From a virus: a DNA stretch of 50,972 nucleotides. A model generated the notes under the pieces. That model saw nothing but the letters and a program-made list of their open reading frames with translations. It did no database searches and was not told the origin of the DNA. How positions within the stretch are numbered: position 1 is the first letter of the stretch; each line of letters opens with the position of its first letter. Positions 1-50,972 of this stretch are shown here, in pieces. Location of the stretch: IMG/VR virus record IMGVR_UViG_3300033141_003735, one strand, 5' to 3'. Position numbers and translations under genes: made by a program.

Positions 1-111
1 CTCGTACCACCTTTTCGTAACTCCAGAGATCCTGCCACAGGGAGATACAAGAGAGTCCCCAGGTAGACAGTTCGGATGAACTGGAATTACCCCCTGTGCC
101 TCATCAATCGT
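1..111. repeat. Terminal redundancy copy 1, identical to 50862..50972. Indicates a circular or circularly permuted 50,861-bp genome, or an assembly overlap.
   Basis: Direct comparison: nt 1..111 (ctcgtaccacc...ctcatcaatcgt) match nt 50862..50972 base for base. Confidence 0.95.
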
Positions 112-906
112 ATATACTTGCCCGTCCTTTTCAGCACATAAATCACAGCACTCAGGGTCAGCGTTAAACCTAACTTTCTCAACCCCCATTTGTTTATAGC
201 CCTGGAGTTCCCCTTCACCCAGAGCCTTAGCGGTCTCAGTCCTGGCTATGCGTTCAGTCCGGTACTTTTGGAGTTTTTTTGCATATCTTTCCGCATGTCT
301 AAATCTCTGCTCTGCTGTATAATGACTATATTTGGGGAGGGTCTCAAGTTCGGTTAATCGTCTCCCCACTGCTAAAGCTAATCTATCTGTAAGCCCCACC
401 ACTGGTCTCAATTCCCGGCCTATATGATAAATAGATTTGCCCTCATTTATACCCCATCGAATATAACTCCTAATGCCTTTCATGGTCTCCTTGGTAATCC
501 CGACTACTAATTCTGCTGAGTGTTCTTTCACCCATTCCACAGCCCCTTCACCTAGGGGGTCAAACCTGTCCTGTTTCAGCACCTTTCTTTCTACAACAGC
601 CTTACCGGCCTCGGTAAGAATCTCATGGAGTACAGGCCGGAAAAGCTCCTCTCCTTTTTTTCTCACGTCATCCCAATCTATCATATTCCGGGTTATAGTA
701 TCAGGCGCCCTGCCTTTCAAGGTCTTAGCCCTATTATCCCTAATATAATCTAACCAGGCGTTAAATACCTTGGCCACCTTGTCTTTGTTCTGGGTAATAA
801 GCCTTTTGTGATTCATTCTGTTAAGCTCATCACGTCTGGACTTTTCCAAAAAAACTTTTAAGGCTTTCTGTATTCTTATGAGCGGTTCAGTTTGGATTTG
901 AGGCAA
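1..906 (-). CDS. Head morphogenesis protein, Mu F / SPP1 gp7 family. N-extein is 70..906 and the first 23 intein codons are 1..69. The ORF runs off the window edge and continues at 50930 via the terminal repeat.
   Basis: TTG start at 906 lies 6 nt after AGGAG. My translation gives ...IARTETAKALGEGELQGYKQMGVEKVRFNADPECCDLCAEKDGQVYTIDEAQGVIPVHPN|CLPGDSLV. The IARTE...C..C...HPNC pattern is the Mu F domain signature, and the gene sits just after portal. Confidence 0.8.
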   Translation of the reverse strand, partial: MPQIQTEPLIRIQKALKVFLEKSRRDELNRMNHKRLITQNKDKVAKVFNAWLDYIRDNRAKTLKGRAPDTITRNMIDWDDVRKKGEELFRPVLHEILTEAGKAVVERKVLKQDRFDPLGEGAVEWVKEHSAELVVGITKETMKGIRSYIRWGINEGKSIYHIGRELRPVVGLTDRLALAVGRRLTELETLPKYSHYTAEQRFRHAERYAKKLQKYRTERIARTETAKALGEGELQGYKQMGVEKVRFNADPECCDLCAEKDGQVYTIDEAQGVIPVHPNCLPGDSLVSPCGRISGVTKRWYE

Positions 907-926
907 CTCTGGCTCCTAATTTTTCT

Positions 927-2653: not shown

Positions 2654-3119
2654 ACTCCTGTCCTTTTATTTGCTCCCCCCTCTCTTCTTTTTCATCTTGG
2701 GGAGGAAGCCTTTTCCGTTTAAGGAACTTCTTAATCCGTTTATCTTTCTCCTCTTCAGTGAGGTCCCTAGCCTCTGTTTCAGGGCCAAAATACACCTGGC
2801 CTTCCTCTATCTCTTCCTCGGTCTGAGCCAAAGCATATATTACAGCTTCAGCATCATCCGGCGACCGACCCAACCTCTTTTTAATTTCAGGTTTGGGGAT
2901 GATTAGGATCTGGCCTGCTGAATTTATTTTATATTTGATTGAATTCAGTTGGCTTGCCAGCTCTGAGTCCTGGGGCAAATCAAGATAAGGGAGAATCTCC
3001 CGTAAGCCCCAGTGGATCTCCGAACGCAGGTTTTTGAATTTAATGGGGTCTCTGGGTTTTTTGGCTCCATTTATGCTTATAAGATTTATCTTTATCCTCA
3101 GCTTCCTCTGCCACTTGCT
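2601..3119 (-). CDS. terL: Terminase large subunit, C-terminal nuclease-domain fragment. The frame is open up to 3119, upstream of the annotated TTG at 2978.
   Basis: Translation ...LRIKINLISINGAKKPRDPIKFKNLRSEIHWGLREILPYLDLPQDSELASQLNSIKYKINSAGQILIIPKPEIKKRLGRSPDDAEAVIYA is a typical TerL C-terminal end. The frame is -1 relative to 3098..4060. Confidence 0.7.
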   Translation of the reverse strand, partial: SKWQRKLRIKINLISINGAKKPRDPIKFKNLRSEIHWGLREILPYLDLPQDSELASQLNSIKYKINSAGQILIIPKPEIKKRLGRSPDDAEAVIYALAQTEEEIEEGQVYFGPETEARDLTEEEKDKRIKKFLKRKRLPPQDEKEERGEQIKGQEYDDEYGDDEDGEIYFET

Positions 3120-4060
3120 TTAATCCGGTCTTTCCACTTCTTAGCCATTCTGTCAACTACTTTCCATACTTCCCCGGCTGTACGCATAGTATCATGGCCT
3201 TTGGCTCGATGGCGTATCCTTACAACAAGCCCTTCTCTTGTGGTTATTACCGTCGAGTCGTCTCCCTCTCTAGCCACGTCCACACCTAGCTCCACAGGAG
3301 GGGTGGGGTCTAGCTTTCTCTCTATGGCTTTCTTCACATCTGAGTAGGGGTAAACATTATCCGGGTCTCCTATGGCTTCCCAGTCTCCATCAAGCAGAGC
3401 CTGCTGCTGTTTAGGAGTCAGCATATCTTTCATCCTGTCTATGTAGCCAGCAGGAAGGTTTTTGGCATTATCCTGAGGCAGTGCTGGGATATATAAAAAA
3501 TCCTTCCCTGGTGCTTCTATGAACAGCTTCTTTAGCCAGCCTGGGTCTGGATTGCAAGACAGCAGAAACTTATATTTAACATCATAACCGGGAACGGTCA
3601 ATCTCAATGTCCGCGACAGCATTCTAAATTCATTTTCTGTAAAGTCCTCAGCCTGGTCTATAGCTATCCAGCCATATTCCCCAGACATCTTCTTTTTCCA
3701 GTCTTCTGGTCTTTCGCCAAGTCCCCCGTATCTAATTTTAGATTTATTAATTAGCCTTATAATCTTTTCGCTCTGGTTCCAGTCTGCCACTAAATCATCG
3801 GGTATGAACTTTTCCATCTGGGGTAAAACCGTATCCCTAAAAGACGGCCAGGTCTTTCGTATAAGCAGACCATCATTGCCGGGATAATCCAAAGAGAGCT
3901 GAAGCCCCTCGTTTATAAGAGCTGCTGTTTTGCCTCCAAATAAAGCCCCTCCGTATAAAATATAAGTAGCATCGGCTTTATGGAATTCCATTTGCTTAGG
4001 ATTCCGTGTAGGGTCATAAGGAAGCTCTATTTCCCTAACTCTTTTTGGTTGAGTTTGCAT
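3098..4060 (-). CDS. terL: Terminase large subunit, N-terminal ATPase plus start of nuclease domain (truncated by a frame break)
   Basis: Walker A-like YGGALFGGKTAA, Walker B-like GWIAIDQAEDF, and a nuclease-domain Asp cluster LGVDVAREGDDSTV. Confidence 0.8.
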   Translation of the reverse strand: MQTQPKRVREIELPYDPTRNPKQMEFHKADATYILYGGALFGGKTAALINEGLQLSLDYPGNDGLLIRKTWPSFRDTVLPQMEKFIPDDLVADWNQSEKIIRLINKSKIRYGGLGERPEDWKKKMSGEYGWIAIDQAEDFTENEFRMLSRTLRLTVPGYDVKYKFLLSCNPDPGWLKKLFIEAPGKDFLYIPALPQDNAKNLPAGYIDRMKDMLTPKQQQALLDGDWEAIGDPDNVYPYSDVKKAIERKLDPTPPVELGVDVAREGDDSTVITTREGLVVRIRHRAKGHDTMRTAGEVWKVVDRMAKKWKDRIKASGRGS

Positions 4061-28408: not shown

Positions 28409-29178
28409 TACAAAAGCTCCTCTACTTCTAAACTAAAAGTGTAAAAACCTTTTTCTCTGGGGTCAAAACTCCAATCGCTTAAGTTTTGGACATACCAGGT
28501 GTCTTTATAAGCCAAGGCTGCATTAGCGTCATCACAGATAAAATAGTCCTTTGACTTACCCACTTCAAGCCAGATATCCCAAAGGCTTTCAAAATCATCT
28601 GCGTTTACAGCACTGAAACCGAAAGCCCATTCCTTGTACCTAGGCTTCTGGTCGCTTGATATCTGCCCGCCCGTCGAACGCTTAACCGTAGAGAGGTCTC
28701 TGAATACAGGCGACCGAGTCCTTATGTCATAATGGAACTCAAAAAAAGACCCTAAGTAGATACGCCCTATTTCTATGTACCCATCAGCATTTGCAGAATC
28801 GATTAGACATAGTCTCCAATATCTGTAATTTTTAACGCTCCCGAAAAATAGAATAATAAGTCCTGGGGTTACGGATATGACTACATCAATAGCCCCCCAA
28901 GGATCCGCATCACTTACTCTAGCCTGGAGCCTCAGTTCATCTCCTGAATTAGTCATGTCCAGGTTATGGTTTTTGATTATAAGGGCTTGCACGTCATAGT
29001 CGCTCCCTAAGTCTGCCTCTATGTCTATGCTTGCACCGCTTAGTCCGGCCTCGCTTCTGTAAGTTCGAGTATGCCAACGGTGCTGAGTGTTGGTTACGGG
29101 AAAGTCTGGATCCTCGCTTGTTGCAGCAAGCGTAGCATCATCCCAGCGGTTTTTCCAGAGTACTCTCATATTGCTCAT
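28408..29178 (-). CDS. Distal tail-like protein with discoidin/galactose-binding-like domain
   Basis: First gene after the tape measure; paralogous to 26138..27169. Confidence 0.45.
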   Translation of the reverse strand: MSNMRVLWKNRWDDATLAATSEDPDFPVTNTQHRWHTRTYRSEAGLSGASIDIEADLGSDYDVQALIIKNHNLDMTNSGDELRLQARVSDADPWGAIDVVISVTPGLIILFFGSVKNYRYWRLCLIDSANADGYIEIGRIYLGSFFEFHYDIRTRSPVFRDLSTVKRSTGGQISSDQKPRYKEWAFGFSAVNADDFESLWDIWLEVGKSKDYFICDDANAALAYKDTWYVQNLSDWSFDPREKGFYTFSLEVEELL

Positions 29179-32100
29179 AACGTACCCCTTACAGCACTCA
29201 AAGACACCGGTACCCTGCCTTTTGTGATTTTTTTCTCAAGGTAATTTACCTTTTCGACCACGAATTTAATGAGGTTGCCGTCATCTTTTGGTATGAGAAT
29301 AGGCTTTATTTGCACATTAACGTTTCCCGTCCCCCCAGCTTGAGCACCGGCAGCCGGAGGTGGGGCATGGTAAATATCCACCCGCTCTCCACGGTGTGCT
29401 TCAAATAGCTGTTCTTGACTTTTAACATACCAAGAACCTTCTTGTTGTGCACTTATAGCTAGAGTGTCTACGGTTGTCCCTATGTTAACTTTTGCCCCAA
29501 AACTTGTTCCTTTAATTTTTTTACTCAGCCGATCTATCTCTCCCATCGCTCCTTTTACGCCTGACTCAAAAGAGCCTTTGAAGGTTTCCCCCGCAGATAA
29601 TATGTCATTTGTCATAGAAGAAAACGCTTCTCTGCTTTTCCCTGAAATAGCATCAAAAGCAGCTCCTGATTTTTCCTCTAAATGCTTCTTAAATGCCTCC
29701 CCGATTTTAGCTGATTGCTCTTCTATGCCGTTGAAAGCTTGAACACCTTTTTCTTTTACCCTATCAAAACCTTTTCTGCCTCCGGATTCGACATTGTCCT
29801 CAATTGATTTTCCGGCTATCTCGGCTTCTCTGTTTAACTCATCAAATACTTCATCGCCCCTCTTGCCCATTGTAGAAAATCCTTCTACTCCTGCTTGGCC
29901 AATTCCTCTTGCAGCCTCTTGTCCCTCTTCTCCAAACTCCGCCATTTTTCCCATAGCTTTCTGCATGGCGGCTGGGATCTCTCCACCTAGGGCTTTTATG
30001 ATTTCACCAAAGCCGGCCAGCATGATGTCATTCGTTTCCATCTGCGCTTCTTTAATTAGACCTTGTTCTTCAGCTTGATTTATTAACTTCTGGGTATTAG
30101 CATCCAAAGACAATCCTTGTTCCTGGGAAAGGTAATTTAAACGTTCCAGGGTGGGAGCCATCTGAGCCAAAGCTTGATTCCCACTTAACCCTGCTTCTGT
30201 TAGTTGGTTATAGTAGTTGCCGGCTTCTTTAGCAGCGTTCGATAATGTCTCCTGGTTCAGGCTTCCTGTATTCCCAAGAGCATTGAGGACTGCTAAATTG
30301 CCTTCGATTGCACTCATTAACCCCTTGTTAGCTTCTGTAACTTCCCGTACTTTTAGAAGTTCCTGAATAGCCGCTGACGCTTGCGTCCCGTTCTCTTTGT
30401 GCTTCTCTGATATCTTATCCAGCACGCTATATACAGCTAAGGTCTGCGTCTCTAACCTGGCCATAGCTTCTTCATTGTTTCCTACGCCTTCAGCCATTGC
30501 GGCCAGGCCTTCGGCTGCGTTCATAGAGCTGCCCTGCACTACGCCAAGCTGGTCATTTATGTAGTCTGTAACCTCAGCAACTTCAACGCCGGAGGTTTTG
30601 ACCTGATTAATAAAATTGACCATAGAGGCAGAACCCTCAGTCCCAAAGTCTTGAGCACTCTCGAGAAGGGTGTTAAATGAACTGCCAAGAGTTTCTGCAC
30701 CCTCTGCTGCACTAATTTCTCCGGACGCTATTGCACCAAGTGTATTTGTTGCATCGCTCCAGAGCTGTTCTACATTGTCTTGTGTTATTTCTATATCTTC
30801 TAGAATTTCATCAAAATGCTTTGCCTCGGCAGCGGCTTGGCTCATACCATCCTTCATATCCGTTGCTATTGCTTTAGCCGTAGCCTCTGAAACTTTACCG
30901 TATCTCTCAAGGCTTTTTGTAACACTTTCAACCGAATCTGCAAATTTTTCTGCCTCTGTCTTAGGTTTCTTAAAGAGCCCTCCAAGTAAGCCTCCAACGA
31001 TTGAACCGACAGCACTGCCAATAGGGCCAAACATACCTCCAATTGACTGCCCAAGGCTTGCACCCATCCTTGCAAAAGTTTCTCGACCTTCTTTTGACGC
31101 ACCACTGATGGCCGAGCCTATCATGCCTCCGAGACCTCCTAACTGACCAGAAACAGAGCTAAGAGCACCTCCAACCCCACCCTCTAAATTATTAGATAAA
31201 TTGGAAACAAACTGATTGACAGTGCTTCCTAACTCTGAAAGTATGCCTCCCCAAGTTCCTCCTATTGATTCTCCAAGCCCAATAATACCAGTAGCAAGAG
31301 TTGCAAAGTTTTTTTCATTTTTAGAAATGAATTCAGCCCAAAAGGAAGCGGTCTTCTTGGAGGCTTCGAATGCTTTGATTTCTGCTTGTGTCAAACCTGG
31401 AATAGCGGATCCGCTGAGCTCATTTGTGGCCTCTATGGCTTCAGTCCTCAGCTTCTCTCCTAGTACCTCTGCGTCTTTAGCAGCTTTTTCAAAAAATTCC
31501 GCTGAGATTTCATCTGCGGTTTTAAGCCCTTCCTGCCAAATCCTTAAGTTTTCGGCTTCTAATAGCTCATTAAATTCTTCTTGTGAAGGTTTAAGATTAT
31601 CAAGGCTGGCCTTGAGCTCATCTATAGCCGGGATGGTAATAGTCTTTATGACCTCACCTTGAGTATGACTGCTTCCCGCAGCTTCCTCTGTTGCCTTCTT
31701 GAGTTCTTCTTTAGCTTTCTTTTCCTCAAGTTCCTTTTTAGTTAATAGTTCGGTTATATTTACATTATCTTCTATAACTTTGGCTGTTTCGCTTCCGGCT
31801 TCTTTTAATATTTGATAAGCTTCTTTTAGGCTGGTCATTTCGCGGCCGGCTATTTTGGATGCCTCGTTCATGGCCTCCATTCTTATAGAGCCCTCTCGAG
31901 TCCGATTCGCCACCTCGTCTAATTCTTCAGTCAAGTTATCATAAGCAATATCCAAGCCAAGTATCGATGCCGTTAAGCCCTGTATTTTTTCATCTAAACC
32001 AGGGATTTGCCTTAATAGGTTTCCTATAAATAAACCGCCTGCAAAAGCCGTTGCGACCATACCAACTGGGGATTTTAAAGCCGTAAAAGCAATTTTTAAC

Positions 32101-33005
32101 CCACCGACCCCTTTTATTAGAGTCGGTAGCATCATTGATATGGGCCCCAATGCAAGTAATAACCCACCAAGCCCAGATACTACTTTAGTTATCATCCCAG
32201 CTAATGCTTCGTGTTCTTTCCCCCAATCCTTAAATTTGGTAATGATACCAGATATTTTCTCGACAAATCCTGTTATGGCTGGGACGATATGGTCTGCAAT
32301 CAATATTGCCAGTCCAGATACGGCTTGCTTTAGAGTCGTCTGAGCATCAGCTAATCTGGCTGCCTTATTTGCTGCTTCTTGGTCAAAGACAATCCCCATC
32401 TCATGGGCTTTTTGTTTTAATTCTTCTAGTCCCTCAGCTCCGGCTGCAAATAGCGGGAGGAGCTTAGTCCCAGCCCTTCCAAATATATCTTGCGCAGTGG
32501 CCGCCCGAACAGTAGGGTCTTCTACGTTTGCAATTGCAGTTGCAATCTTATCAAACTGTTCTTCAGGCGAAAGTCCGATTAATTTTTCATAGTCAACATT
32601 GATTCGCTCAAAAGCTCTCTGGTACGTGGCCATTCCCTCACCAGCATCTACAATAGTTTTGGCCATACGCTTGACGCCTTTTTCTAGAGCACCTATATCC
32701 GCACCCGCTATTTGTGCTGCATACCGAAGTTCAGATAATCTTTCAGTTGAGAAGCCAGTCCTTAACGCCATCTTATGGACTTCATCGCCGGCCTTAACAT
32801 AGTTTTTTACCATTAGGCCAAGAGTACCAACAATTGCACCACCGGCAATGGTCGCAGCTTGACCAAATTGCCTAAACTTCTTGCTGTTCTTCTCTACAAA
32901 ACCACCAAAGCCTTGGACGTTTGTTTTAGCTGTCTTTATGGCTCTGGAAAAAGCAGACGTATCCAGTTCCAGCTTACTCTTTATTGCACCTGCTAAAAAT
33001 GCCAT
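29175..33005 (-). CDS. Tape measure protein
   Basis: 1276 aa, Ala/Gly/Glu-rich with hydrophobic glycine-zipper segments, immediately after the G/GT chaperones. Confidence 0.85.
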   Translation of the reverse strand: MAFLAGAIKSKLELDTSAFSRAIKTAKTNVQGFGGFVEKNSKKFRQFGQAATIAGGAIVGTLGLMVKNYVKAGDEVHKMALRTGFSTERLSELRYAAQIAGADIGALEKGVKRMAKTIVDAGEGMATYQRAFERINVDYEKLIGLSPEEQFDKIATAIANVEDPTVRAATAQDIFGRAGTKLLPLFAAGAEGLEELKQKAHEMGIVFDQEAANKAARLADAQTTLKQAVSGLAILIADHIVPAITGFVEKISGIITKFKDWGKEHEALAGMITKVVSGLGGLLLALGPISMMLPTLIKGVGGLKIAFTALKSPVGMVATAFAGGLFIGNLLRQIPGLDEKIQGLTASILGLDIAYDNLTEELDEVANRTREGSIRMEAMNEASKIAGREMTSLKEAYQILKEAGSETAKVIEDNVNITELLTKKELEEKKAKEELKKATEEAAGSSHTQGEVIKTITIPAIDELKASLDNLKPSQEEFNELLEAENLRIWQEGLKTADEISAEFFEKAAKDAEVLGEKLRTEAIEATNELSGSAIPGLTQAEIKAFEASKKTASFWAEFISKNEKNFATLATGIIGLGESIGGTWGGILSELGSTVNQFVSNLSNNLEGGVGGALSSVSGQLGGLGGMIGSAISGASKEGRETFARMGASLGQSIGGMFGPIGSAVGSIVGGLLGGLFKKPKTEAEKFADSVESVTKSLERYGKVSEATAKAIATDMKDGMSQAAAEAKHFDEILEDIEITQDNVEQLWSDATNTLGAIASGEISAAEGAETLGSSFNTLLESAQDFGTEGSASMVNFINQVKTSGVEVAEVTDYINDQLGVVQGSSMNAAEGLAAMAEGVGNNEEAMARLETQTLAVYSVLDKISEKHKENGTQASAAIQELLKVREVTEANKGLMSAIEGNLAVLNALGNTGSLNQETLSNAAKEAGNYYNQLTEAGLSGNQALAQMAPTLERLNYLSQEQGLSLDANTQKLINQAEEQGLIKEAQMETNDIMLAGFGEIIKALGGEIPAAMQKAMGKMAEFGEEGQEAARGIGQAGVEGFSTMGKRGDEVFDELNREAEIAGKSIEDNVESGGRKGFDRVKEKGVQAFNGIEEQSAKIGEAFKKHLEEKSGAAFDAISGKSREAFSSMTNDILSAGETFKGSFESGVKGAMGEIDRLSKKIKGTSFGAKVNIGTTVDTLAISAQQEGSWYVKSQEQLFEAHRGERVDIYHAPPPAAGAQAGGTGNVNVQIKPILIPKDDGNLIKFVVEKVNYLEKKITKGRVPVSLSAVRGTL

Positions 33006-44644: not shown

Positions 44645-45640
44645 AAATAGAGACTGGTTATATAAGAAGTATGTCATAGAAAAACTTTCTGCATGTGAGA
44701 TTCAAAGGATCTGTTCAGTCGGAAACGGTACAATAGAAAGGTGGCTGAGAAAGTTTGGCATTGAAATCAGAAGTTACAGCGAAGCAATTAAGCTAATAAG
44801 GAAAAATAAATATTGGCATAGTGGTAATTTATCAAAACAAAAGATACAAAAGTACAGGAATAAGAATTGGCTATACCAGAAATATTGGGTAGAAGGCTTA
44901 GACTCGGTGCAGATGGCCAAAATTGTGGGAACCCAATCTAATGTAATTATGAGCTGGATTAGGGCTTTTAATATAAAAGTAAAGCCCAAAGGTGAAAACC
45001 AAAGAGGGCGAAAACATTATATCAGAAGAGTCTAAGCTCTTGATTTCTATAAAAGCCAAGAAAAGATGGCAAAGTAAATCATACCGAAAGAAGATGTCAC
45101 TTGTATTAAAAGGTCTTCAAGCAGGAAAAAATAATCCTAATTACGGGGGAGTTTATTCGAGGAAGAGATCGGTTAAAGAAAAAATTAGCAAAGCAAATAA
45201 AGGAAGAAAGATTAGTGAAGAAGAAATGGCTAGGCGTATTCAGTCATGGAAAACAAGGCCTTCTAAATTAGAGAAGATGTTTGATGATATTACTCCTCCT
45301 GAAATTAGATATACAGGAGATGGAGCCTGGTGGAGAAAACTAGATGAATGGGCATTATCATAATCCAGATTTTAAAGTCACTGGCCAGAATAAAGTAATA
45401 GAAATTTGGGGTTCGCATTGGCATAAAAACGATGATGGGTATTATCTGATTAATTTATATAGAAGAGCTGGGTTAGATTGCTTAATCATAAAAGAGTCTG
45501 AATTCTATCCTTTGACTAATTCTCCCTCTAAAAGGATTTTAAATAAAAATAGAAGGCTTAAAATACAAAGGAAGGTAAGGGCGTTTGTGAATGATAGCCC
45601 TAGCCAGTTGTTGCTGTCCCCCCCATTGAAAATCCGTTGA
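44613..45640 (+). pseudogene. Free-standing homing endonuclease gene (HTH repeats, NUMOD3-like, Vsr/DUF559-like PD-(D/E)XK) broken into three frames
   Basis: There are two copies of the HTH module: WLYKKY..IQRICSV..GTIERWLRKFGIEIRSYSEA and WLYQKY..MAKIVGT... NUMOD3-like motifs GKNNPNYGG and ISKANKGRKISEE follow. The nuclease core is PSKLEKMF...YTGDG / HYHNPDFKV..KVIEIWGSHWH. Frame changes occur near 44990..45005 and 45340..45350. Confidence 0.6.
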
Positions 45641-48335
45641 ATTTGCCTTCAATTATATCATTCCAGATTTCTTTCTCGTCTCCCAAATAGACGGAGATAT
45701 ACCAATCACCAGATTTGACCAGGTGGTTGTCCCCAGTGCCTCCCTTGTGATGGTCTTCTTCGGCCTGGTAGCATTCAATGATTTTAGCTTTAATAGGTTT
45801 TCCCTCGTGCATCAGCTTGATTTTTCCGCCCTTTATCATAAACTTTTTTAACGCCTTCCATATCTCTGAAGCAGAAGCCGCATCTCCCTGGGTATCTACG
45901 TCGTTTGCTGAGTACACAATACCACCTACGATATACTCTTTTTTGTTCACCTTAAGGAATCTAAAATAAGGAGAATCATCTTTTTTTATTATTCTTTCCA
46001 GGGCTTTTTTTATTTTCTCAGCTAGGCTACTCCACCACTCTTCCCAGTTTTTCTCCCCATAGGACGTTTTGCCAGCCACTACGATTCTAGGTCTGTTCTC
46101 AGTCCCTATATCTGAGATAGAAAACAACCCTTCTGATTTATCGATTTCCTCGCTTACTTTTTCAGCAAGAGAATCTAGGTTCTGGTCTCTCATGCGAAAC
46201 ACCACAAAGGCTACACGGTCTTTATCTTTACCCTCATCTGTGCTTCTTATCTCTACATGTGCTAAAGAATTTAAGCCCTCAAGCCAGGCATCTTTAATGT
46301 GTTTATCCACCATCAGGCCTTTCCAATTTTTTTTAGGTGAATCAGTTCGACCGCTTAAGGGCTTGGAAGGAACGACACCATAAACAGCTTTATATGCAAG
46401 CGTTGGGGAGTTTATACGTTCTTGCTTATCAACCTCTTTTTTATGGTCATCGTCGTCTAGTTTTCTCATCATCCAAATGCGCTTACCTTCCTCTGTTGGC
46501 ACATACGCCATAAGCCAGTTGCCGTCAAAGTGCCGGCTATTGGTAACGTGGAACTTCTTGGCATGCTCGTCAGCCTGGTAAAGAGACCAATTAAACTTAT
46601 CGATTCTTAACATAGCCGCATACATGTTTGCAGTTGCACCAACTTCCCCAGGCTCAAATATCTCTAGTTTGTTAACACCTGCTTTAAACCAACTCATAGG
46701 GCCTCGAATTATATCGATTTTAGTTTCGCCTTTTCTGGGAACCTTCCACCCAAATCTCAAGCTCTGACCTTTTTTGTACCCATAAATTTTATTCAGCCCT
46801 GAGAGGTTGCCTATCATAATCTCTCCACCCTCCCAATATTTATCTTTCTTTCTATGGAACCGTATATCTATATGGGCGCCCTGCTCTCCGATTTTATTCT
46901 TTAAGAGCTTCTCAAGATTCCTAAGGTCACCTCTGGCTACTATAGCTCGGTCTTTAATGTCCAGAAGGCTCTCGAGTTCTTTTTCCTCTATGCCCATTAT
47001 ATGAAGCTGAGCTACAGCATCACCTGAGTCGCCTTCTTCAAAATCTATGTTTCCCTCTACACTAGCCGCACCCTCTTCGTCCTTTACCTTTTTGAATTTG
47101 ACATTACGGATTACAGTCTGGACTCCCTGGGGGTACTCGTACTCTTTGGGCAGTTTGTACTTATCTACCCAGTCGAATTCGTAAGACCAAAGACTTTTCT
47201 CTTTATCGAAGCCCCAGTCCTTAGCCTCCTTATCAGTTATCTTATGTTTTTCTTTAAGGTCTTGGAATTCTTTTTGAGTAATCTTTATGGGCTTGTGGAA
47301 TTTAACCTCTCCATAGCACAAATCTCCACTGCATAGGAAAACAGTTTTCTCAACATACTCATCTGGGAGCTTCTTAATCTTAATAACTAGGTTCTTATCC
47401 CCATCAAACATGTACTTGCCATGAGGTTCCTGAAGATATATTCCCCGTCCGGAACCAATTGCTTTCTGTAGGATATTAGCCTTCTCTGCGATTTGTACAA
47501 CCTGGTTAGCATAATAAGGCTCTTTCCTCGCCTCGTCTTTATCAATCACCCTTGGGCCTAGCCAATCCAGTTTATTCTCGCTTGGGATAATCTCCTCAAT
47601 GCCTATAGTCAAAATATCCCCTGGGCTAGCATTTATCTTTGTGTTAAATGTCTTGCCTAGGTTCACTAGCTCCATATCACCAACACGGGTTATGTTTTGG
47701 TAGGGGCTATCTCCTTTCAATACCCCGCAGGTGTAGTTGTAATTGCCTCCTTTTACACTGTGCTTCTCTATGACCATTACTTTTATCTCAGCCTCTATTT
47801 TAAGCTTAGCCCAGCCTTCTATGCTTCCATCTACATCCCATATGCTTTCGATATCCTTGACCACAATCCCTTCAGACTGGGGATATTTAGCAAACTTTTT
47901 AAACGCTTTTTCTAGCTCGCTTTTATTGTTTACGACCTGGGTCTCTGTTATTTTAAAATTTTTAGATGACTTAAGATATTTATTATAGAACTCCTCAAGT
48001 TTTTTTCTTCTTTCACTAAAAGGCAATAGGTGTAGGTCTTTTTTCCAGAAAGGCAAATCGAAAACGGTACAGACTATTATTTCTCCTTCCGTAAGCTCTG
48101 GTTTATCAGCCATTAAAGTCATAAGCTTAATTCGAGGCAAAGGCTTCCCGTTCTTTTCTATACCCACTCCCCCGTCAAGAATGTAATCATCAGGTATCTT
48201 AGCTAAAACCTCCGTCAATGAAGCAAACTCTTTTGTTCTATCCTTACCACCTTCAGTCTTTATGCGGAATCTATCTCCTAATTTTTCAGCTATGCATCTA
48301 AAAGAATTAAGCTTTGGCTCAGCCACAAGTCCCAT
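45600..48335 (-). CDS. Multidomain head-module protein: ATP-dependent ligase-like NTase plus OB domains (N-terminally truncated), central domains (possible ASCH-like and LigD phosphoesterase-like), and a C-terminal XkdF-type prohead protease
   Basis: Ligase motifs are I KLNSFR (variant), III ILDGGV (variant), IIIa FDLPFW...PFSERRKKLEEF, IV SEGIVVKD and V GWAKLK. The C-terminus YIVGGIVYSANDVDTQGDAASASEIWKALKKFM...SGDWYISVYLGDEKEIWNDIIEGKFNGFSMGGTA matches XkdF. Confidence 0.6.
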   Translation of the reverse strand: MGLVAEPKLNSFRCIAEKLGDRFRIKTEGGKDRTKEFASLTEVLAKIPDDYILDGGVGIEKNGKPLPRIKLMTLMADKPELTEGEIIVCTVFDLPFWKKDLHLLPFSERRKKLEEFYNKYLKSSKNFKITETQVVNNKSELEKAFKKFAKYPQSEGIVVKDIESIWDVDGSIEGWAKLKIEAEIKVMVIEKHSVKGGNYNYTCGVLKGDSPYQNITRVGDMELVNLGKTFNTKINASPGDILTIGIEEIIPSENKLDWLGPRVIDKDEARKEPYYANQVVQIAEKANILQKAIGSGRGIYLQEPHGKYMFDGDKNLVIKIKKLPDEYVEKTVFLCSGDLCYGEVKFHKPIKITQKEFQDLKEKHKITDKEAKDWGFDKEKSLWSYEFDWVDKYKLPKEYEYPQGVQTVIRNVKFKKVKDEEGAASVEGNIDFEEGDSGDAVAQLHIMGIEEKELESLLDIKDRAIVARGDLRNLEKLLKNKIGEQGAHIDIRFHRKKDKYWEGGEIMIGNLSGLNKIYGYKKGQSLRFGWKVPRKGETKIDIIRGPMSWFKAGVNKLEIFEPGEVGATANMYAAMLRIDKFNWSLYQADEHAKKFHVTNSRHFDGNWLMAYVPTEEGKRIWMMRKLDDDDHKKEVDKQERINSPTLAYKAVYGVVPSKPLSGRTDSPKKNWKGLMVDKHIKDAWLEGLNSLAHVEIRSTDEGKDKDRVAFVVFRMRDQNLDSLAEKVSEEIDKSEGLFSISDIGTENRPRIVVAGKTSYGEKNWEEWWSSLAEKIKKALERIIKKDDSPYFRFLKVNKKEYIVGGIVYSANDVDTQGDAASASEIWKALKKFMIKGGKIKLMHEGKPIKAKIIECYQAEEDHHKGGTGDNHLVKSGDWYISVYLGDEKEIWNDIIEGKFNGFSMGGTATTG

Positions 48336-48885
48336 CGTCTTTTACCTCTAATTTTCCTAATAATAATTGATTTTCATATTCTAAAATTGAAATCCTTTCC
48401 TCTAATTCTTTAATCTTTTTCTTCATTGTGTTTATTTGGACATGATTGGCTTGGTTAGGTAATAACTCAAGATTTTCTATTCTATTATCATCTTTAATTC
48501 CATTTTTATGATGAACTACTTCCCAGGTTTCGAGACACCTTCCTAAATACTTTGCCATAACCAAACGATGTTCTCTGATATAACCATGATGATCAGCCAT
48601 TGGATAGAAAGGACTTTCTTCTTTTAGATTAATATATATATAACCTTCTTTTGTTTTAAGCTTCCCGCCTTTCCACCTTGGGTGGTCTTCTCGTTTATAG
48701 CCTATATTATTAAAAAGTTTTCTGCTACACTTAGCACAATGACCAGTATAATTAGGTCGATTCATTTTATTTAATTGAACCCATCGTTTCGAACCACAAT
48801 TTGGGCATATTACTAATCCATATTTATTCGAACCCTTTTTTCCTATTTCAAAGGGTCTCTTAACGTCTATAATTTCATTGTTCAT
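48319..48885 (-). CDS. HNH homing endonuclease inserted within the ligase-like coding region
   Basis: HHGYIREHRLVMAKYLGRCLETWEVVHHKNGIKDDNRIENLELLPNQANH is the HNH motif, with an N-terminal CPNC...CAKC zinc finger. The ORF starts 1 nt after the upstream stop and overlaps the downstream ATG by 17 nt. Confidence 0.8.
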   Translation of the reverse strand: MNNEIIDVKRPFEIGKKGSNKYGLVICPNCGSKRWVQLNKMNRPNYTGHCAKCSRKLFNNIGYKREDHPRWKGGKLKTKEGYIYINLKEESPFYPMADHHGYIREHRLVMAKYLGRCLETWEVVHHKNGIKDDNRIENLELLPNQANHVQINTMKKKIKELEERISILEYENQLLLGKLEVKDDGTCG

Positions 48886-48886
48886 T

Positions 48887-50089
48887 TCAAATCCTTTCTT
48901 TAGCCCAGTCCCATATCTGCTCTACTGTAAACGCCTCCGTATGAGTTAGAAAGCCGCTCATAGCAGGCTTAGGTGGAACAAACTCCCCAAACGGGGTAAG
49001 CTCTTTTTCCTTTTTAACCTTTGTCATCACGGCCAATGCTGTGTTTGAGGATTTTATAAGCTGAGACGACCAGCCCTTGCTTAGAATCTTTTTAAATTCA
49101 GTTAGGTTCTTGTACTCATGTTTATGGGTGGGGTCTTGTCTTTCGCCCAGAGGTACTATGACTATAGCTTTTTTCCTAGCCACTCTCTCCATTTCTTTAG
49201 CCAAAGACTTTGGATTGGTTACGTGTTCCAGCACATGGACTGCTGTCACGTTGTCAAATGAGTTATCTTCAAAAGGGATTCCTTTGTCTAAGTCATGCTC
49301 TTTGATATCGAGCTTCTTACCCCTTGCCATTTTAATAGCAGTTCTATCTACATCCACTCCCAGGACGTCCCTTCCATCTCCTTCCAGGAGCTTAAGAAGT
49401 TTTCCCGAACCGCAGCCTATGTCCAGAACCGAGCCTTTGCTTAGATTCTCAAGCACATGAGCATTGTCACAAAGAAGGCCTACATCCCAACTCTCTAATC
49501 CCTCATAATAATCCGCTGCTCTTTTAAGTTTAGCCTGTACGCTTTCCTTAACGTAAACTCTCTTAAGATTAGGTTTGACCCGAGCTACTAAATCAAAGAC
49601 AGGAATATAAGTGCTGTGAGGCCCACGAGGTGCATATACAAAATGCAAGTCTTTCTTTATTTGCCTCTTCAAGACCCTGCCTATTTTAAGCTCAAGGCCT
49701 TCGTCTCTATTTCTTGCATACTCCCGGATTATGATATCTAGGTCATTAGCTTCTCTCGGTCTCTTGACAAACGACCCCCCAATAGAAATATAGTCGTTTA
49801 CTATTACCTGGTCTCCTATGCTTTTAATATCAATTCCCGTCATGGCTTTTCTGAACGCCTCAATGTCCAAATCAGTTGTAGTGTGATGAGTGAGATTCCT
49901 CTTGTTCATCTCTCTTATGAGGATTTGATACTTGTCTATAAATTCAAAGCGGTCTAGTCCGCCGACCTCCCCACCTTCTCGGCCCTTGAGGTTCTTGTTA
50001 TAGAGCTGTATAAATCTAAGGCGCATGTTATATAGTTCTTTATCATTCTCCTTTTTGATTGATTTTGCTGTAATATTCTCTATTTCCAT
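48887..50089 (-). CDS. Pol-beta-type nucleotidyltransferase plus class I SAM methyltransferase protein, ending in the N-terminal segment of the ligase-like domain (start revised to MEIEN at 50089)
   Basis: ISIGGSFVKRPREANDLDIIIRE fits the GS-x10-DxD NTase motif. VLDIGCGSGKLLKLLEGDGRDVLGVDVD...VHVLEHV is the SAM MTase. The C-terminus is FVPPKPAMSGFLTHTEAFTVEQIWDWAKERI. Confidence 0.55.
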   Translation of the reverse strand: MEIENITAKSIKKENDKELYNMRLRFIQLYNKNLKGREGGEVGGLDRFEFIDKYQILIREMNKRNLTHHTTTDLDIEAFRKAMTGIDIKSIGDQVIVNDYISIGGSFVKRPREANDLDIIIREYARNRDEGLELKIGRVLKRQIKKDLHFVYAPRGPHSTYIPVFDLVARVKPNLKRVYVKESVQAKLKRAADYYEGLESWDVGLLCDNAHVLENLSKGSVLDIGCGSGKLLKLLEGDGRDVLGVDVDRTAIKMARGKKLDIKEHDLDKGIPFEDNSFDNVTAVHVLEHVTNPKSLAKEMERVARKKAIVIVPLGERQDPTHKHEYKNLTEFKKILSKGWSSQLIKSSNTALAVMTKVKKEKELTPFGEFVPPKPAMSGFLTHTEAFTVEQIWDWAKERI

Positions 50090-50090
50090 T

Positions 50091-50972
50091 TTACACCACC
50101 GCTGTGAACGTACATTCGCAGTTATGACTTGCAATATTATTAGCAATGTACCAATGGTTTTTGGTTTGCAAATTATATACATATCCGGTATAATATTCAG
50201 TATGGACACTAATGACTTTATCGAACTTTATAGGAAAGGGTTGTCCATTTATAAAATTGCTAATATCTATGGAGTTAGCCCCTCTTGGGTCTATTTCGTA
50301 GTTAAAAGAGCTGGGGTTAATAGGACACGCTCCGAGGCTTTGCGTCTCCAACCTAGGGAAAGATTTGTTGCCATGTCTAAAAAAGCAGTAATTGCTCGTC
50401 AAGGACGCGGACGGGAAATTACTTTTGCCGAACGGTTGCGTAGAGCCAAAACCCGTGAACTTAGACAATCCGCCACCGGCCCCACTGAAAAATTGGTTGT
50501 CATTGCTCTTAGCAAAAAAGGAATTCATGGTGTAGCCCAAAAGGCTATTGGTCCCTATAATTGCGACTTGGCCGTCGGGACTAACATCGCCGTGGAAATC
50601 CTCAGCACTTATTTTCGTTTTTACGGTAAGCGTAGACTTAGAGAGGAAAAACGACTCCGCAATTTGCTCAATTGGGGCTGGAATATAATTTATATTCTTC
50701 TTAATCCGCGAAATCCAGTTATAACCAACGTCCAAAGAGATAACGTAGTCTCCAAGATTCAAGAAATTAATAGGCACCCAACCGAAATTACTCAATACTG
50801 GATGATTGGGAGTAGCGGTCAGATTCTTGCCAGTGGTGGTTTTAATGATGATAACATCTCCCTCGTACCACCTTTTCGTAACTCCAGAGATCCTGCCACA
50901 GGGAGATACAAGAGAGTCCCCAGGTAGACAGTTCGGATGAACTGGAATTACCCCCTGTGCCTCATCAATCGT
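50091..50972 (-). CDS. Mu F/SPP1 gp7-like head morphogenesis protein, 3' portion: end of N-extein, 270-aa intein and 9-aa C-extein (CECTFTAVV)
   Basis: Continuous minus-strand frame ...TIDEAQGVIPVHPN|CLPGDSLV...NIASHN|CECTFTAVV*. Joins 1..906 through the terminal repeat. Confidence 0.8.
   Translation of the reverse strand, partial: TIDEAQGVIPVHPNCLPGDSLVSPCGRISGVTKRWYEGDVIIIKTTTGKNLTATPNHPVLSNFGWVPINFLNLGDYVISLDVGYNWISRIKKNINYIPAPIEQIAESFFLSKSTLTVKTKISAEDFHGDVSPDGQVAIIGTNSLLGYTMNSFFAKSNDNQFFSGAGGGLSKFTGFGSTQPFGKSNFPSASLTSNYCFFRHGNKSFPRLETQSLGACPINPSSFNYEIDPRGANSIDISNFINGQPFPIKFDKVISVHTEYYTGYVYNLQTKNHWYIANNIASHNCECTFTAVV
50166..50194 (+). promoter_or_regulatory. Sigma-70-type promoter (TTGCAA-17-TATAAT) antisense to intein block F, 7 nt upstream of the plus-strand ATG
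   Basis: TTGCAA at 50166..50171 and TATAAT at 50189..50194. ATG at 50202 with no Shine-Dalgarno site, implying a leaderless mRNA. Confidence 0.55.
50202..50927 (+). CDS. HTH plus Vsr/DUF559-like PD-(D/E)XK homing endonuclease encoded antisense, entirely within the intein
   Basis: The HTH is MDTNDFIELYRKGLSIYKIANIYGVSPSWVYFVVKRAGVNRTRSEA. The nuclease core is TGPTEKLVVIALSKKGIHGVAQKAIGPYNCDLAVGTNIAVEILSTYFRFYGKRRLREEKRLRNLLNWGWNIIYI. It shares the module family of 44613..45640. Confidence 0.65.
   Translation: MDTNDFIELYRKGLSIYKIANIYGVSPSWVYFVVKRAGVNRTRSEALRLQPRERFVAMSKKAVIARQGRGREITFAERLRRAKTRELRQSATGPTEKLVVIALSKKGIHGVAQKAIGPYNCDLAVGTNIAVEILSTYFRFYGKRRLREEKRLRNLLNWGWNIIYILLNPRNPVITNVQRDNVVSKIQEINRHPTEITQYWMIGSSGQILASGGFNDDNISLVPPFRNSRDPATGRYKRVPR

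What the first reader, a model, noticed from the sequence alone, without database searches (positions are those of the whole stretch)
50121..50930. Intein inserted at the HPN|CxC motif of a Mu F / SPP1 gp7 head morphogenesis protein
The minus-strand frame reads ...CCDLCAEKDGQVYTIDEAQGVIPVHPN | CLPGDSLV...TATPNHPV...YTGYVYNLQTKNHWYIANNIASHN | CECTFTAVV*.

Canonical Hint blocks A, B, F and G are present. Block F carries N in place of the usual D (VYNL). Removing 270 codons restores the family's terminal HPNC(R/E)C motif. The precursor is 558 aa and the spliced product 288 aa.

The host is a virion morphogenesis protein rather than the usual replication or terminase targets. The gene also straddles the window edge, so linear annotation would miss it.
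Basis: partly seen in the sequence, partly recalled or inferred. Interest (0 to 1): 0.7.

Follow-up and report, generated by a model that had tools for sequence, protein, structure and literature searches.

The report
Head-protein intein hiding an antisense endonuclease gene
A phage head-assembly gene (Mu F / SPP1 gp7 type) is interrupted by a real self-splicing intein, and the intein's opposite strand carries a complete Vsr-like homing-endonuclease gene; both features are real, but both kinds have been described before.

Summary
Complement(50091..50972 + 112..906) is one 558-aa ORF: a Mu F/SPP1 gp7 head-morphogenesis protein with a 270-aa class-1-type intein (50121-50930, minus strand) inserted at HPN|CEC. 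Curated HMM thresholds are passed. Intein-less homologues read HPNCRC without a break. Cys1, TxxH, His-Asn and Cys+1 are invariant in 52 relatives.

There, codon for codon in register, lies a 241-aa ORF (50202-50927, plus strand) encoding an HTH plus a Vsr-like/EDxHD endonuclease. Its stop codon is the reverse complement of intein codon 2. A TTGCAA-17-TATAAT promoter-like site ends 7 nt before its ATG.

The middle of the intein is the stop-free antisense reading of that gene and is predicted disordered. In 55 diverse relatives, codon 2 is CTA/TTA in 48, and synonymous codons in the N-terminal half of the splicing domain are biased so as to conserve plus-strand residues. This points to true dual coding.

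The window's endonuclease copy is the most degenerate of 115 homologues. The splicing domain looks normal.

Mu F inteins are already annotated in cultured phages and were reported in 2004. Antisense Vsr-like endonucleases in inteins were described in a 2025 preprint. This is a new member of a known kind, with some new detail.

The parts
70..906 (-). N-extein of the Mu F / SPP1 gp7 head-morphogenesis protein (279 codons, TTG start at 906-904). Bases 70-111 are the same sequence as 50931-50972.
   Evidence: ORF reconstruction across the 111-bp terminal repeat. Pfam Phage_Mu_F and TIGR01641 score above their cut-offs.
913..917 (-). Shine-Dalgarno AGGAG, 6 nt upstream of the TTG start of the Mu F gene
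   Evidence: Read directly from the sequence.
50121..50930 (-). Intein, 270 codons (Cys1 at 50930-50928, Asn270 at 50123-50121).
   Evidence: Pfam and NCBIfam intein models score above their cut-offs. Splice residues are conserved in 52 relatives. Hint fold shown by AF2 plus Foldseek.
50736..50930 (-). Hint N-terminal subdomain (intein codons 1-65, blocks A and B). It is dual-coded with the C-terminal helix and beta tail of the plus-strand endonuclease.
   Evidence: pLDDT 80-96. Third-position diversity on the minus strand is 0.47, against 0.62 in Hint-C and 0.67 in the extein. Synonymous codons are biased so as to conserve plus-strand residues.
50244..50546 (-). Central linker of the intein (about codons 129-229). 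It is the stop-free antisense reading of the endonuclease gene and is not a folded domain.
   Evidence: pLDDT 26-36. Codon-position diversity shows selection on the plus frame only.
50121..50243 (-). Hint C-terminal subdomain (blocks F and G). Its antisense carries the expression signals of the plus-strand gene.
   Evidence: pLDDT 86-97. The pattern is ordinary single-frame selection. The promoter-like site lies inside it.
50091..50120 (-). C-extein CECTFTAVV plus the stop codon
   Evidence: Intein-less homologues read HPNCRCT....
50202..50927 (+). Antisense-nested homing-endonuclease gene: 241 codons plus TAG. Residues 3-36 are an HTH, about 107-191 are the Vsr-like/EDxHD nuclease core, and 192-241 are a beta tail. 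The stop TAG (50925-50927) is the reverse complement of intein codon 2 (CTA).
   Evidence: ORF list. HTH_23, HTH_7 and MTES_1575 hits. Homologues found. AF2 pLDDT 93.6. Best PDB matches are I-Bth0305I and Vsr. The plus-frame third position is the most variable over residues 2-146.
50166..50194 (+). Sigma-70-like promoter TTGCAA-17-TATAAT, ending 7 nt before the ATG at 50202. No Shine-Dalgarno is present, so the mRNA may be leaderless.
   Evidence: It is the only promoter-like site in 49600-50972 on either strand; sequence. Across the family, -10-like hexamers are enriched in this region.
50862..50972 (.). Terminal direct repeat, identical to 1-111. It cuts the gene at the contig ends.
   Evidence: Exact 111-bp match.

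Best explanation
This is a composite selfish element sitting in an essential phage head-assembly gene.

**Minus strand.** The Mu F / SPP1 gp7 protein is made as a 558-aa precursor. A class-1-type intein removes itself by the standard route (inferred from conserved residues):
1. N-S acyl shift at Cys1.
2. Trans-thioesterification to Cys+1.
3. Cyclisation of Asn270, assisted by His269.

This rebuilds the family's ...IPVHPN-CEC... C-terminus.

**Plus strand.** Exactly codon-in-register and wholly inside the intein lies a separate gene for an HTH plus Vsr-like (EDxHD-type) endonuclease.
- Its expression signals lie in the antisense of intein blocks F and G.
- Its ATG is the antisense of a His codon just upstream of block F.
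- Its stop is the antisense of intein codon 2 (Leu CTA).

**Three zones follow from this layout.**
- The central third of the intein is only a disordered linker. It is kept free of stop codons so that the two Hint halves stay on one chain.
- The N-terminal Hint subdomain is truly dual-coded with the endonuclease's C-terminal tail.
- The C-terminal Hint subdomain is coded on the minus strand only.

**Function in the family (inferred).** The endonuclease cuts intein-less Mu F alleles in co-infecting phages, and repair copies the whole 810-bp element in (homing).

**This window's copy.** The splicing domain looks intact. The endonuclease has lost several near-invariant residues, so it is probably weakened or dead.

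**Shown:** anatomy, homology, folds, and selection signatures on both frames. **Inferred:** splicing, transcription, cleavage and homing.
For: **Intein and Mu F identity**
- HMM scores above curated cut-offs.
- Hint fold.
- Clean insertion relative to intein-less homologues.
- Splice residues invariant in 52 relatives; the window deviates at only 2 of 28 conserved Hint columns.

**The plus ORF is a real gene**
- Both strands are open in register over 277 codons.
  - The three codons that would be antisense stops (TTA, CTA, TCA) make up 4.4% of this genome's codons, giving P of about 5e-6.
  - The longest such run in any other gene of the window is 131 codons.
- Homologues number 1,863 clusters (at 50% identity) at E<=1e-30.
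- AF2 pLDDT is 93.6. The top PDB matches are I-Bth0305I and Vsr.
- The plus-frame third position is the most variable over residues 2-146.

**The architecture is conserved**
- All 55 non-redundant IMG/VR loci have an open intein in register at the PPxHxx|C site.
- All matches in cultured phages lie under Mu F / minor-head genes.

**Dual coding**
- Codon 2 is CTA or TTA in 48 of 55 loci, even at 60-70% GC.
- There is no antisense stop in codons 3-85 in 50 of 55 loci, against 18.6 expected.
- Synonymous codon bias conserves plus-strand residues:
  - V8 is GTA in 37 of 39 (expected fraction 0.12), giving plus-strand Tyr.
  - G24 is GGA in 40 of 51 (expected fraction 0.15), giving plus-strand Ser.
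- Three mini-inteins at the same site that lack the endonuclease have 2-3 antisense stops in this region.

**Expression signals**
- TTGCAA-17-TATAAT lies 7 nt before the ATG.
- -10-like hexamers occur in 42 of 55 loci, against 20.5 +/- 2.6 under synonymous resampling.

**Mobility**
- Locus L083 has exteins about 93% identical to the window at the DNA level, but its intein interior is only 35-65% identical.

**Degenerate endonuclease in this window**
- It deviates at 12 of 39 conserved columns, against a median of 2, which makes it the worst of 115.

**Prior description of the architecture:** bioRxiv 10.1101/2025.01.02.630785.
Against: - There is no expression, splicing or cleavage data for this or any close relative.
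- The promoter call is a consensus match. The count of promoter-like sites in the region is no higher than in shuffled sequence.
- The position and type of start signal differ between lineages.
- The 80 IMG/VR loci were the best-scoring of 294. This favours intact plus ORFs and inflates the stop-avoidance statistics.
- The high AF2 confidence for the endonuclease tail could partly reflect covariation inherited from the Hint fold encoded on the other strand.
- Structural matches to I-Bth0305I and Vsr have weak E-values (4.5e-3 to 3e-2).
- The Pfam MTES_1575 hit is below its cut-off (19.6 against 38.2).
- Loss of the GGxWH histidine is not proof of inactivity. Jerseyvirus and Kagunavirus copies also read GGGWAC.
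Confidence: 0.85

Rival explanations
1. The plus-strand ORF is a non-functional shadow. On this view it is open and looks conserved only because it is the in-register antisense of a conserved intein.
For: - Over the Hint-N overlap, selection is dominated by the minus frame.
- In-register antisense frames are the easiest to keep open, because only three sense codons give antisense stops.
- The window's own copy is degenerate at conserved positions.
Against: - Over plus-strand residues 2-146, the plus-frame third position is the most variable, and the minus reading is predicted disordered.
- The plus protein has HTH and nuclease signatures and a Vsr / I-Bth0305I-like fold.
- Its nuclease core aligns with an in-frame DUF559 nuclease in another Mu F intein.
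- Mini-inteins that lack the gene acquire antisense stops.
- CTA/TTA at codon 2 in 48 of 55 loci has no explanation from the minus frame.
Confidence: 0.04
2. In this particular window the endonuclease is already dead. The ORF is intact but the active site has decayed. The element would then be a vertically inherited, splicing-only intein on its way to becoming a mini-intein.
For: - The window copy is the most deviant of 115 homologues. It has lost G135, G136, W138, H139, H144 and Y154.
- H139 lines up by motif with Vsr His69. This alignment is my own, from the known Vsr sequence, and is not a tool result.
- The sister locus L083 has an in-frame deletion of the ILxxGW motif.
- L086 has lost the HTH part.
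Against: - The 241-codon ORF still has no stop, and it has a perfect -10 hexamer at its start.
- D122, E132, R151 and E96 are kept.
- Enterobacterial phage copies also lack the histidine, yet are conserved across many phages.
Confidence: 0.45
3. This is a split intein or 'fractured gene' in the sense of Dassa et al. 2009. On this view the two Hint halves are separate polypeptides that splice in trans around a free-standing endonuclease gene.
For: The endonuclease superfamily (Vsr-like) is the same as in half of the fractured-gene loci (PMC2677866).
Against: - The minus frame has no stop across all 270 codons here.
- The same is true in all 55 non-redundant relatives.
- There is no internal start or RBS for a C-terminal fragment.
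- The endonuclease is on the opposite strand, not in the host gene's orientation.
Confidence: 0.02
4. The 270 residues are a native, non-excised domain of this Mu F protein, or a dead intein that stays in the mature protein.
For: Block F has Asn where many inteins have Asp. Splicing has not been tested.
Against: - Intein-less homologues are contiguous at HPNCRC.
- All catalytic positions are invariant.
- Asn in block F is the family norm, 51 of 52.
- The centre is predicted disordered and is not under minus-frame selection.
- The same site carries 137- to 384-aa inteins of different types.
Confidence: 0.04

Closest known systems
Inteins with anti-sense VSR-like homing endonucleases in actinobacteriophages (Gosselin, Arsenault & Gogarten, bioRxiv 10.1101/2025.01.02.630785)
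   Same: - A contiguous, non-split intein with a Vsr-like endonuclease ORF on the opposite strand.
- The in-frame middle of the intein is unstructured.
- The endonuclease model matches Vsr (1CW0) and I-Bth0305I (3R3P).
- Minor capsid (SPP1 gp7-type) proteins are among the hosts.
- My tblastn hits include Gordonia and Rhodococcus phage MuF-like minor capsid genes.
   Different: - This window is a 39% GC uncultured phage, not an actinophage.
[quoted passage not shown]
  - Here, and in about 50 diverse relatives, the ORF runs antisense across the whole N-terminal Hint subdomain.
  - It stops at intein codon 2, and codon-level evidence points to dual constraint.
- I could read only the main text, not the supplements.
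Annotated Mu F / head-morphogenesis inteins
   Same: - Known cases include:
  - the Methylococcus capsulatus Mu-like prophage F protein (Ward et al. 2004, PMC517821);
  - Escherichia phage Snoke MK931441;
  - Jerseyvirus gp15 (PMC8425127);
  - phage KMB36 'minor head protein with inserted intein'.
- They share the host protein family and the insertion point before the Cys of HPxC(R/E)C.
- Intein size is about 270 aa.
- The plus-strand ORF is present in Snoke and vB_StyS-sam.
   Different: - Those records annotate only the intein.
[quoted passage not shown]
- The antisense gene is unannotated, or a fragment of it is called hypothetical.
Synechocystis DnaX intein with an antisense LAGLIDADG ORF (Gorbalenya 1998, as cited in the 2025 preprint)
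   Same: The endonuclease gene lies on the opposite strand inside a contiguous intein.
   Different: The endonuclease family is different (LAGLIDADG against Vsr-like), and the host is cellular. I did not examine that locus.
Fractured genes: split inteins with a free-standing Vsr-like endonuclease gene between the halves (Dassa et al. 2009, PMC2677866)
   Same: A Vsr-like endonuclease invades an intein in phage-derived DNA, bringing its own expression signals.
   Different: In those loci the endonuclease is in the host gene's orientation and breaks the intein into two genes. Here it is antisense and the intein frame stays open.
I-Bth0305I (EDxHD homing endonuclease, PDB 3R3P) and E. coli Vsr (1CW0/1VSR)
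   Same: These are the best structural matches of the plus-strand protein's core (probabilities 1.00, 0.99 and 0.96). The D...E...GGxWH...R...GW motif pattern of the family is shared.
   Different: - Sequence identity is only 13-18%, and E-values are weak.
- The N-terminal HTH and the C-terminal beta tail (residues 192-241) have no counterpart.
- The window copy lacks the GGxWH motif.

Membership tests
Intein (Hint domain, class 1) | Sequence match to curated intein models | tested here: met
   PF14890 scores 48.7 (cut-off 35.8), TIGR01445 24.9 (24.5) and TIGR01443 17.3 (15.6). A profile also hits the KlbA, RecA and RadA inteins in the PDB.
Intein (Hint domain, class 1) | Catalytic residues: Cys/Ser1, block B TxxH, C-terminal His-Asn, and Cys/Ser/Thr at +1 | tested here: met
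   C1, T40, H43, H269, N270 and C+1 are present. Each is conserved in 49-52 of 52 relatives.
Intein (Hint domain, class 1) | Block F aspartate (typical of inteins, not universal) | tested here: not met
   The residue is Asn (VYNL). 51 of 52 relatives also have Asn, so this is a family trait and not decay.
Intein (Hint domain, class 1) | In-frame insertion at a conserved host site, with intein-less homologues contiguous | tested here: met
   P0033, P0036, P0058, P0070, P0076 and P0086 read ...HPNCRC....
Intein (Hint domain, class 1) | Hint fold | tested here: met
   In the AF2 model, Hint-N and Hint-C have pLDDT 80-97. All top 50 Foldseek PDB matches are inteins or Hint domains, including NpuDnaB at TM 0.64.
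Intein (Hint domain, class 1) | Protein splicing activity | not testable with these tools
   This needs expression of the precursor.
Phage Mu F / SPP1 gp7 head-morphogenesis protein | Match to PF04233 and TIGR01641, with the terminal HPNC(R/E)C motif | tested here: met
   PF04233 scores 32.4 (cut-off 29.6) and TIGR01641 40.9 (39.65). The motif is restored on removing the intein.
Phage Mu F / SPP1 gp7 head-morphogenesis protein | Position in the head module downstream of the portal gene | tested here: met
   Portal (PF04860) lies at 1181-2653 (-), followed by an 84-aa ORF and then this gene. The order is the same in L084 and in Snoke.
Vsr-like / EDxHD homing endonuclease | Vsr-type nuclease fold | tested here: met
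   AF2 pLDDT is 93.6. The best PDB matches are 3r3p (probability 1.00, TMt 0.63), 1cw0 (0.99) and 1vsr (0.96), with weak E-values.
Vsr-like / EDxHD homing endonuclease | Curated sequence-family match | tested here: inconclusive
   PF18741 MTES_1575 gives E=1e-3 at 19.6 bits, below its cut-off of 38.2. Several homologues carry precomputed PF18741 hits, and JGI names some of them very-short-patch-repair endonuclease.
Vsr-like / EDxHD homing endonuclease | Conserved active-site motifs of the family (D122, E132, GGxWH, H144, R151) | tested here: not met
   The window copy keeps D122, E132 and R151. It reads LSTYFR where GGxWH is expected, and R where H144 is expected. It is the most deviant of 115 homologues.
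Vsr-like / EDxHD homing endonuclease | Site-specific cleavage of the empty allele, and homing | not testable with these tools
   The evidence is indirect only. Exteins are near-identical between the window and L083 while the inteins are divergent.
Intein with antisense-encoded endonuclease (Gorbalenya 1998; Gosselin et al. 2025) | Complete endonuclease ORF on the opposite strand within the intein, with the intein frame uninterrupted | tested here: met
   The plus ORF at 50202-50927 lies inside the intein at 50121-50930, and the minus frame is open.
Intein with antisense-encoded endonuclease (Gorbalenya 1998; Gosselin et al. 2025) | The in-frame centre of the intein is not a folded domain | tested here: met
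   Residues 143-243 of the modelled segment have pLDDT 26-36.
Split intein / fractured gene (Dassa et al. 2009) | Host gene and intein broken into two ORFs by the endonuclease gene | tested here: not met
   There is no stop codon in the 270 intein codons, nor in any of the 55 relatives.

The most novel reading that the evidence does not exclude
The element would be a fully self-contained antisense gene packed inside an intein.
- A -10 promoter element is written in the antisense of block G.
- A ribosome-binding site is written in the antisense of block F.
- The stop codon is written in intein codon 2.

The endonuclease's last 50 or so residues would be a domain that arose by overprinting on the antisense of the N-terminal Hint subdomain. 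About 60 codons would then encode two folded, selected protein segments on opposite strands.

The family is large: about 1,900 clusters (at 50% identity) at E<=1e-30. It seems tied almost exclusively to one site in Mu F proteins across many bacterial phyla.

As far as I could read, these points go beyond the 2025 preprint, which places the secondary ORFs mostly outside the splicing domain.
Probability: 0.55. Interest if true: 0.7.

Novelty: new member of a known kind. Interest (0 to 1): 0.5.

Why it matters
For this window, the practical result is a corrected annotation.
- The contig ends cut through a head-morphogenesis gene that carries an intein.
- The 241-aa protein called on the other strand is that intein's endonuclease, not an independent gene.

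More generally, this family is a clean natural case of two proteins encoded on opposite strands of the same codons, with a selection signature for each.
- It explains why Mu F inteins were described as lacking an endonuclease.
- It offers a direct experiment. Synonymous changes in the intein (to TTA, CTA or TCA) truncate the endonuclease without touching the intein, so the two functions can be separated genetically in cultured Jerseyviruses.

Tried and rejected
- **Contig look-up.** I looked up the contig record of the plus-strand protein P0001 to see what the source annotation called at the contig ends. It is not on record.
- **One conserved promoter position.** I expected one position for the whole family. 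Start codons and signals differ by lineage:
  - the window has TATAAT 7 nt before the ATG;
  - L084 has AAGGAGG 7 nt upstream;
  - many loci have TGTTATAAT about 45 nt upstream plus GGAGG.

  Only the statistical enrichment of -10-like hexamers holds up.
- **Lost histidine as proof of a dead nuclease.** I took the missing GGxWH histidine as proof and then dropped that reading. Snoke and vB_StyS-sam read GGGWAC.
- **Frameshift explanation.** I considered that a local double frameshift might explain the window's aberrant LSTYFRFY segment. Reading the other two frames by eye gave no WGGxWH, so these are substitutions.
- **Literature.**
  - A search for 'MupF' found nothing.
  - 'Opposite strand' gave only irrelevant papers.
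- **Methylococcus prophage.** The genome scan did not return it, so I cannot say whether the 2004 intein carries the antisense gene.
- **Rejected readings.** Split-intein and native-domain readings are dealt with under the rival explanations.
Full report
**1. Observation**

The window carries an exact 111-bp direct repeat at its two ends (1-111 = 50862-50972). The contig is therefore circular or terminally redundant, and the minus-strand gene that runs off at 50972 continues at 112..906.

The joined ORF is 558 codons from TTG 906-904, with AGGAG 6 nt upstream.

Coordinates:
- Intein: 50121-50930 (minus strand), 270 codons.
- N-extein: 279 aa.
- C-extein: 9 aa.

**2. It is an intein in a Mu F protein**

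All five curated models are passed:
- Pfam Intein_splicing: 48.7 bits (cut-off 35.8).
- Pfam Phage_Mu_F: 32.4 bits (cut-off 29.6).
- TIGR01641: 40.9 bits (cut-off 39.65).
- TIGR01445: 24.9 bits (cut-off 24.5).
- TIGR01443: 17.3 bits (cut-off 15.6).

Further support:
- Intein-less Mu F homologues read ...IPVHPNCRC... without interruption.
- In an alignment of 52 diverse relatives, C1, T40, H43, N270 and C+1 are invariant and H269 is nearly so.
- The window deviates at only 2 of 28 conserved Hint columns.
- An AlphaFold model of the 293-aa segment is confident in the two Hint halves, pLDDT 80-97.
- All of its top 50 PDB matches are inteins or Hint domains.
- A sequence profile also finds the KlbA, RecA and RadA inteins.
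- The gene sits downstream of the portal gene, as Mu F genes do.

**3.

The plus strand holds a 300-codon ORF (50025-50927) in exact codon register with the intein. This genome is 39% GC, and every other long ORF but one is on the minus strand.

In this register, the antisense stops correspond to the sense codons TTA, CTA and TCA.
- These make up 4.4% of codons in the window's genes.
- The intein has none after codon 2, which gives P of about 5e-6.
- The longest such run in any other gene is 131 codons.

From the ATG at 50202, the ORF encodes 241 aa with weak HTH_23/HTH_7 hits and a REase_MTES_1575 hit. Its TAG stop (50925-50927) is the reverse complement of intein codon 2, CTA.

**4. The plus ORF is a real gene**

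- It has homologues over its full length: 10 from a single-sequence search and 130 from a profile search.
- An exhaustive profile search finds 1,863 clusters (at 50% identity) at E<=1e-30 and 9,588 at E<=1e-10.
- With a 115-sequence alignment, AlphaFold gives pLDDT 93.6 and pTM 0.78.
- The best PDB matches are the homing endonuclease I-Bth0305I (3r3p) and E. coli Vsr (1cw0, 1vsr), with probabilities 0.96-1.00 but weak E-values.
- The nuclease core (residues 89-187) aligns with an in-frame DUF559-type nuclease in a different Mu F intein, P0074.

Codon-position diversity was measured across 56 non-redundant loci.
- The plus-frame third position is the most variable over plus-strand residues 2-146 (0.65-0.70 against 0.45-0.58). 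Selection there acts on the plus protein.
- The minus-frame reading of that stretch has pLDDT 26-36, which indicates disorder.

**5. The architecture is conserved and under selection**

A scan of IMG/VR with the plus protein found 294 loci, and the best 80 were fetched.

After removing redundancy, 55 loci remained. All 55 have an uninterrupted minus-strand intein in register, at a ...PPxHxx|C(R/x)(C/S)... site.

Five of eight diverse spliced exteins hit Pfam Phage_Mu_F, with the match ending at the junction.

Signs of selection on the plus frame within the N-terminal Hint subdomain:
- Intein codon 2 is CTA or TTA in 48 of 55 loci, even in genomes of 60-70% GC.
- Codons 3-85 contain no antisense stop in 50 of 55 loci. 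Extein codon usage predicts 18.6.
- Minus-frame third-position diversity is 0.47 in Hint-N, against 0.62 in Hint-C and 0.67 in the extein.
- Synonymous choice at conserved Hint-N residues is strongly skewed toward codons that conserve plus-strand residues:
  - V8 is GTA in 37 of 39 (expected fraction 0.12), giving Tyr.
  - G24 is GGA in 40 of 51 (expected fraction 0.15), giving Ser.
  - L37 and L46 are CTC, giving Glu.
  - V63 is GTA in 32 of 44.
- Hint-C is mostly unbiased.
- Three mini-inteins at the same site that lack the endonuclease (L085, L087, L088) carry 2-3 antisense stops in this region.

I conclude that the endonuclease's C-terminal part is truly co-encoded with the Hint N-terminal subdomain.

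Caveats:
- The 80 loci were the best-scoring of 294.
- The sequences are related to one another.
- AlphaFold's confidence in the tail might borrow covariation from the Hint fold.

**6. Expression signals (inference)**

The only sigma-70-like site in 49600-50972 on either strand is TTGCAA-17-TATAAT at 50166-50194. It ends 7 nt before the ATG and has no Shine-Dalgarno, which suggests a leaderless mRNA. The count of sites in the region is no higher than in shuffled sequence.

Across the family, the antisense of the last 30 intein codons was compared with 1,000 synonymous resamplings:

| Feature | Observed (of 55 loci) | Resampled mean +/- sd | Resampled maximum |
|---|---|---|---|
| -10-like hexamer, at least 5 of 6 | 42 | 20.5 +/- 2.6 | 28 |
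| TGn-extended -10 form | 18 | 2.2 +/- 1.4 | 8 |
| Perfect TATAAT | 20 | 4.8 +/- 1.7 | 12 |

- The commonest form, TGTTATAAT, is the antisense of the block G codons GGN ATT ATA ACA.
- A GGAGG arises from the N-L-Q codons of block F.
- The exact layout differs between lineages.

**7. Mobility and state of this copy**

Locus L083 has exteins about 93% identical to the window at the DNA level. Its intein interior is only 35-65% identical, with the switch-points just inside the intein ends. Near-identical phages therefore carry different intein alleles.

The window's endonuclease is the most deviant of 115 homologues.
- It differs at 12 of 39 conserved columns, against a median of 2.
- It has lost G135, G136, W138, H139, H144 and Y154.

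Its relatives show other lesions.
- L083 has an in-frame deletion of the ILxxGW motif.
- L086 has lost the HTH part.

I rate the window's nuclease as probably weakened or dead. Enterobacterial phage copies also lack the histidine, so this is not certain.

**8. Comparison with what is known**

- An intein in Mu F was reported in 2004 for a Methylococcus capsulatus prophage, described as lacking a recognisable endonuclease (PMC517821).
- Jerseyvirus, Kagunavirus and other cultured phages carry annotated intein-containing capsid morphogenesis proteins.
  - 104 phage records match the plus protein, and every listed match lies under a Mu F, minor-head or hypothetical-protein gene.
  - The antisense gene itself is not annotated there.
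- Prophage copies occur in at least 16 bacterial genomes from many phyla.
- Contiguous inteins with anti-sense VSR-like endonucleases were described for actinobacteriophages in a 2025 preprint.
  - Minor capsid proteins are among the hosts it lists for non-canonical endonuclease architectures.
  - It cites antisense LAGLIDADG cases known since 1998.
- Dassa et al. 2009 described the same endonuclease type between split-intein halves in the host gene's orientation. That arrangement is excluded here because the frame is open.

**9. Verdict**

The finding is real and correctly interpreted as far as it went, but the kind is known. The added value lies in three things:
- the antisense endonuclease gene in this window;
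- its probable decay;
- family-wide evidence for dual coding of the Hint N-terminal subdomain, for a stop codon placed in intein codon 2, and for promoter elements written into block G. I did not find these points in the text of the preprint.

Novelty: new member of a known kind. Interest: 0.5.

Noticed in passing
window 48319-48885 (-): A free-standing HNH_3 homing-endonuclease gene (188 aa; PF13392, 46.6 bits) is wedged between two genes. Upstream is the methyltransferase-domain gene (48887-50089). Downstream is the 911-aa ligase-protease gene, whose start it overlaps by 17 nt. In relative L085, methyltransferase, DNA-ligase and protease domains lie in a single 1082-aa ORF. This endonuclease gene may therefore sit at or near a gene break.
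   Followed up: partly
window 45600-48335 (-): A 911-aa protein combines an N-terminal ATP-dependent DNA ligase domain (PF01068) with a C-terminal XkdF-like prohead serine protease (PF14550). This is an unusual fusion in a head module.
   Followed up: no
window 1-111 and 50862-50972: An exact 111-bp terminal direct repeat is present. The contig is a circularly closed or terminally redundant genome of 50,861 unique bp, and all long ORFs but two are on the minus strand.
   Followed up: yes
window 30670-31146 (+): This is the only other long plus-strand ORF (158 aa). It lies antisense inside the 1276-aa minus-strand gene at 29175-33005. I did not examine it, and it may be chance.
   Followed up: no
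L083 (whole locus) and L086 301-1737: The endonuclease gene appears to decay by in-frame deletion while both strands stay open. L083 lacks 14 residues that include the ILxxGW motif. L086 has lost the whole HTH part, leaving a 188-aa intein whose antisense still reads the nuclease core and tail.
   Followed up: partly
protein P0074 (710 aa): A Mu F intein at the same HPN|C site carries a DUF559/MTES_1575 nuclease in frame on the sense strand. The same nuclease superfamily has therefore been captured in both orientations at this site.
   Followed up: partly
L081 (Escherichia phage Snoke MK931441) 2465-3217 (+) and L082 (Salmonella phage vB_StyS-sam): Cultured enterobacterial phages carry an intact 250-aa antisense endonuclease ORF inside their annotated intein. 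TATAAT lies 45 nt upstream of the ATG and GAGG 8 nt upstream. The ORF is unannotated in Snoke and only a fragment is annotated in vB_StyS-sam. These phages would be convenient experimental systems.
   Followed up: partly
intein sizes among Mu F homologues: Intein lengths at this one site cluster at about 270 aa and about 320-338 aa. The longer ones go with endonucleases that have extra HTH repeats. There are also minis of 137-188 aa. This suggests repeated gain and loss of HTH modules within the nested gene.
   Followed up: no
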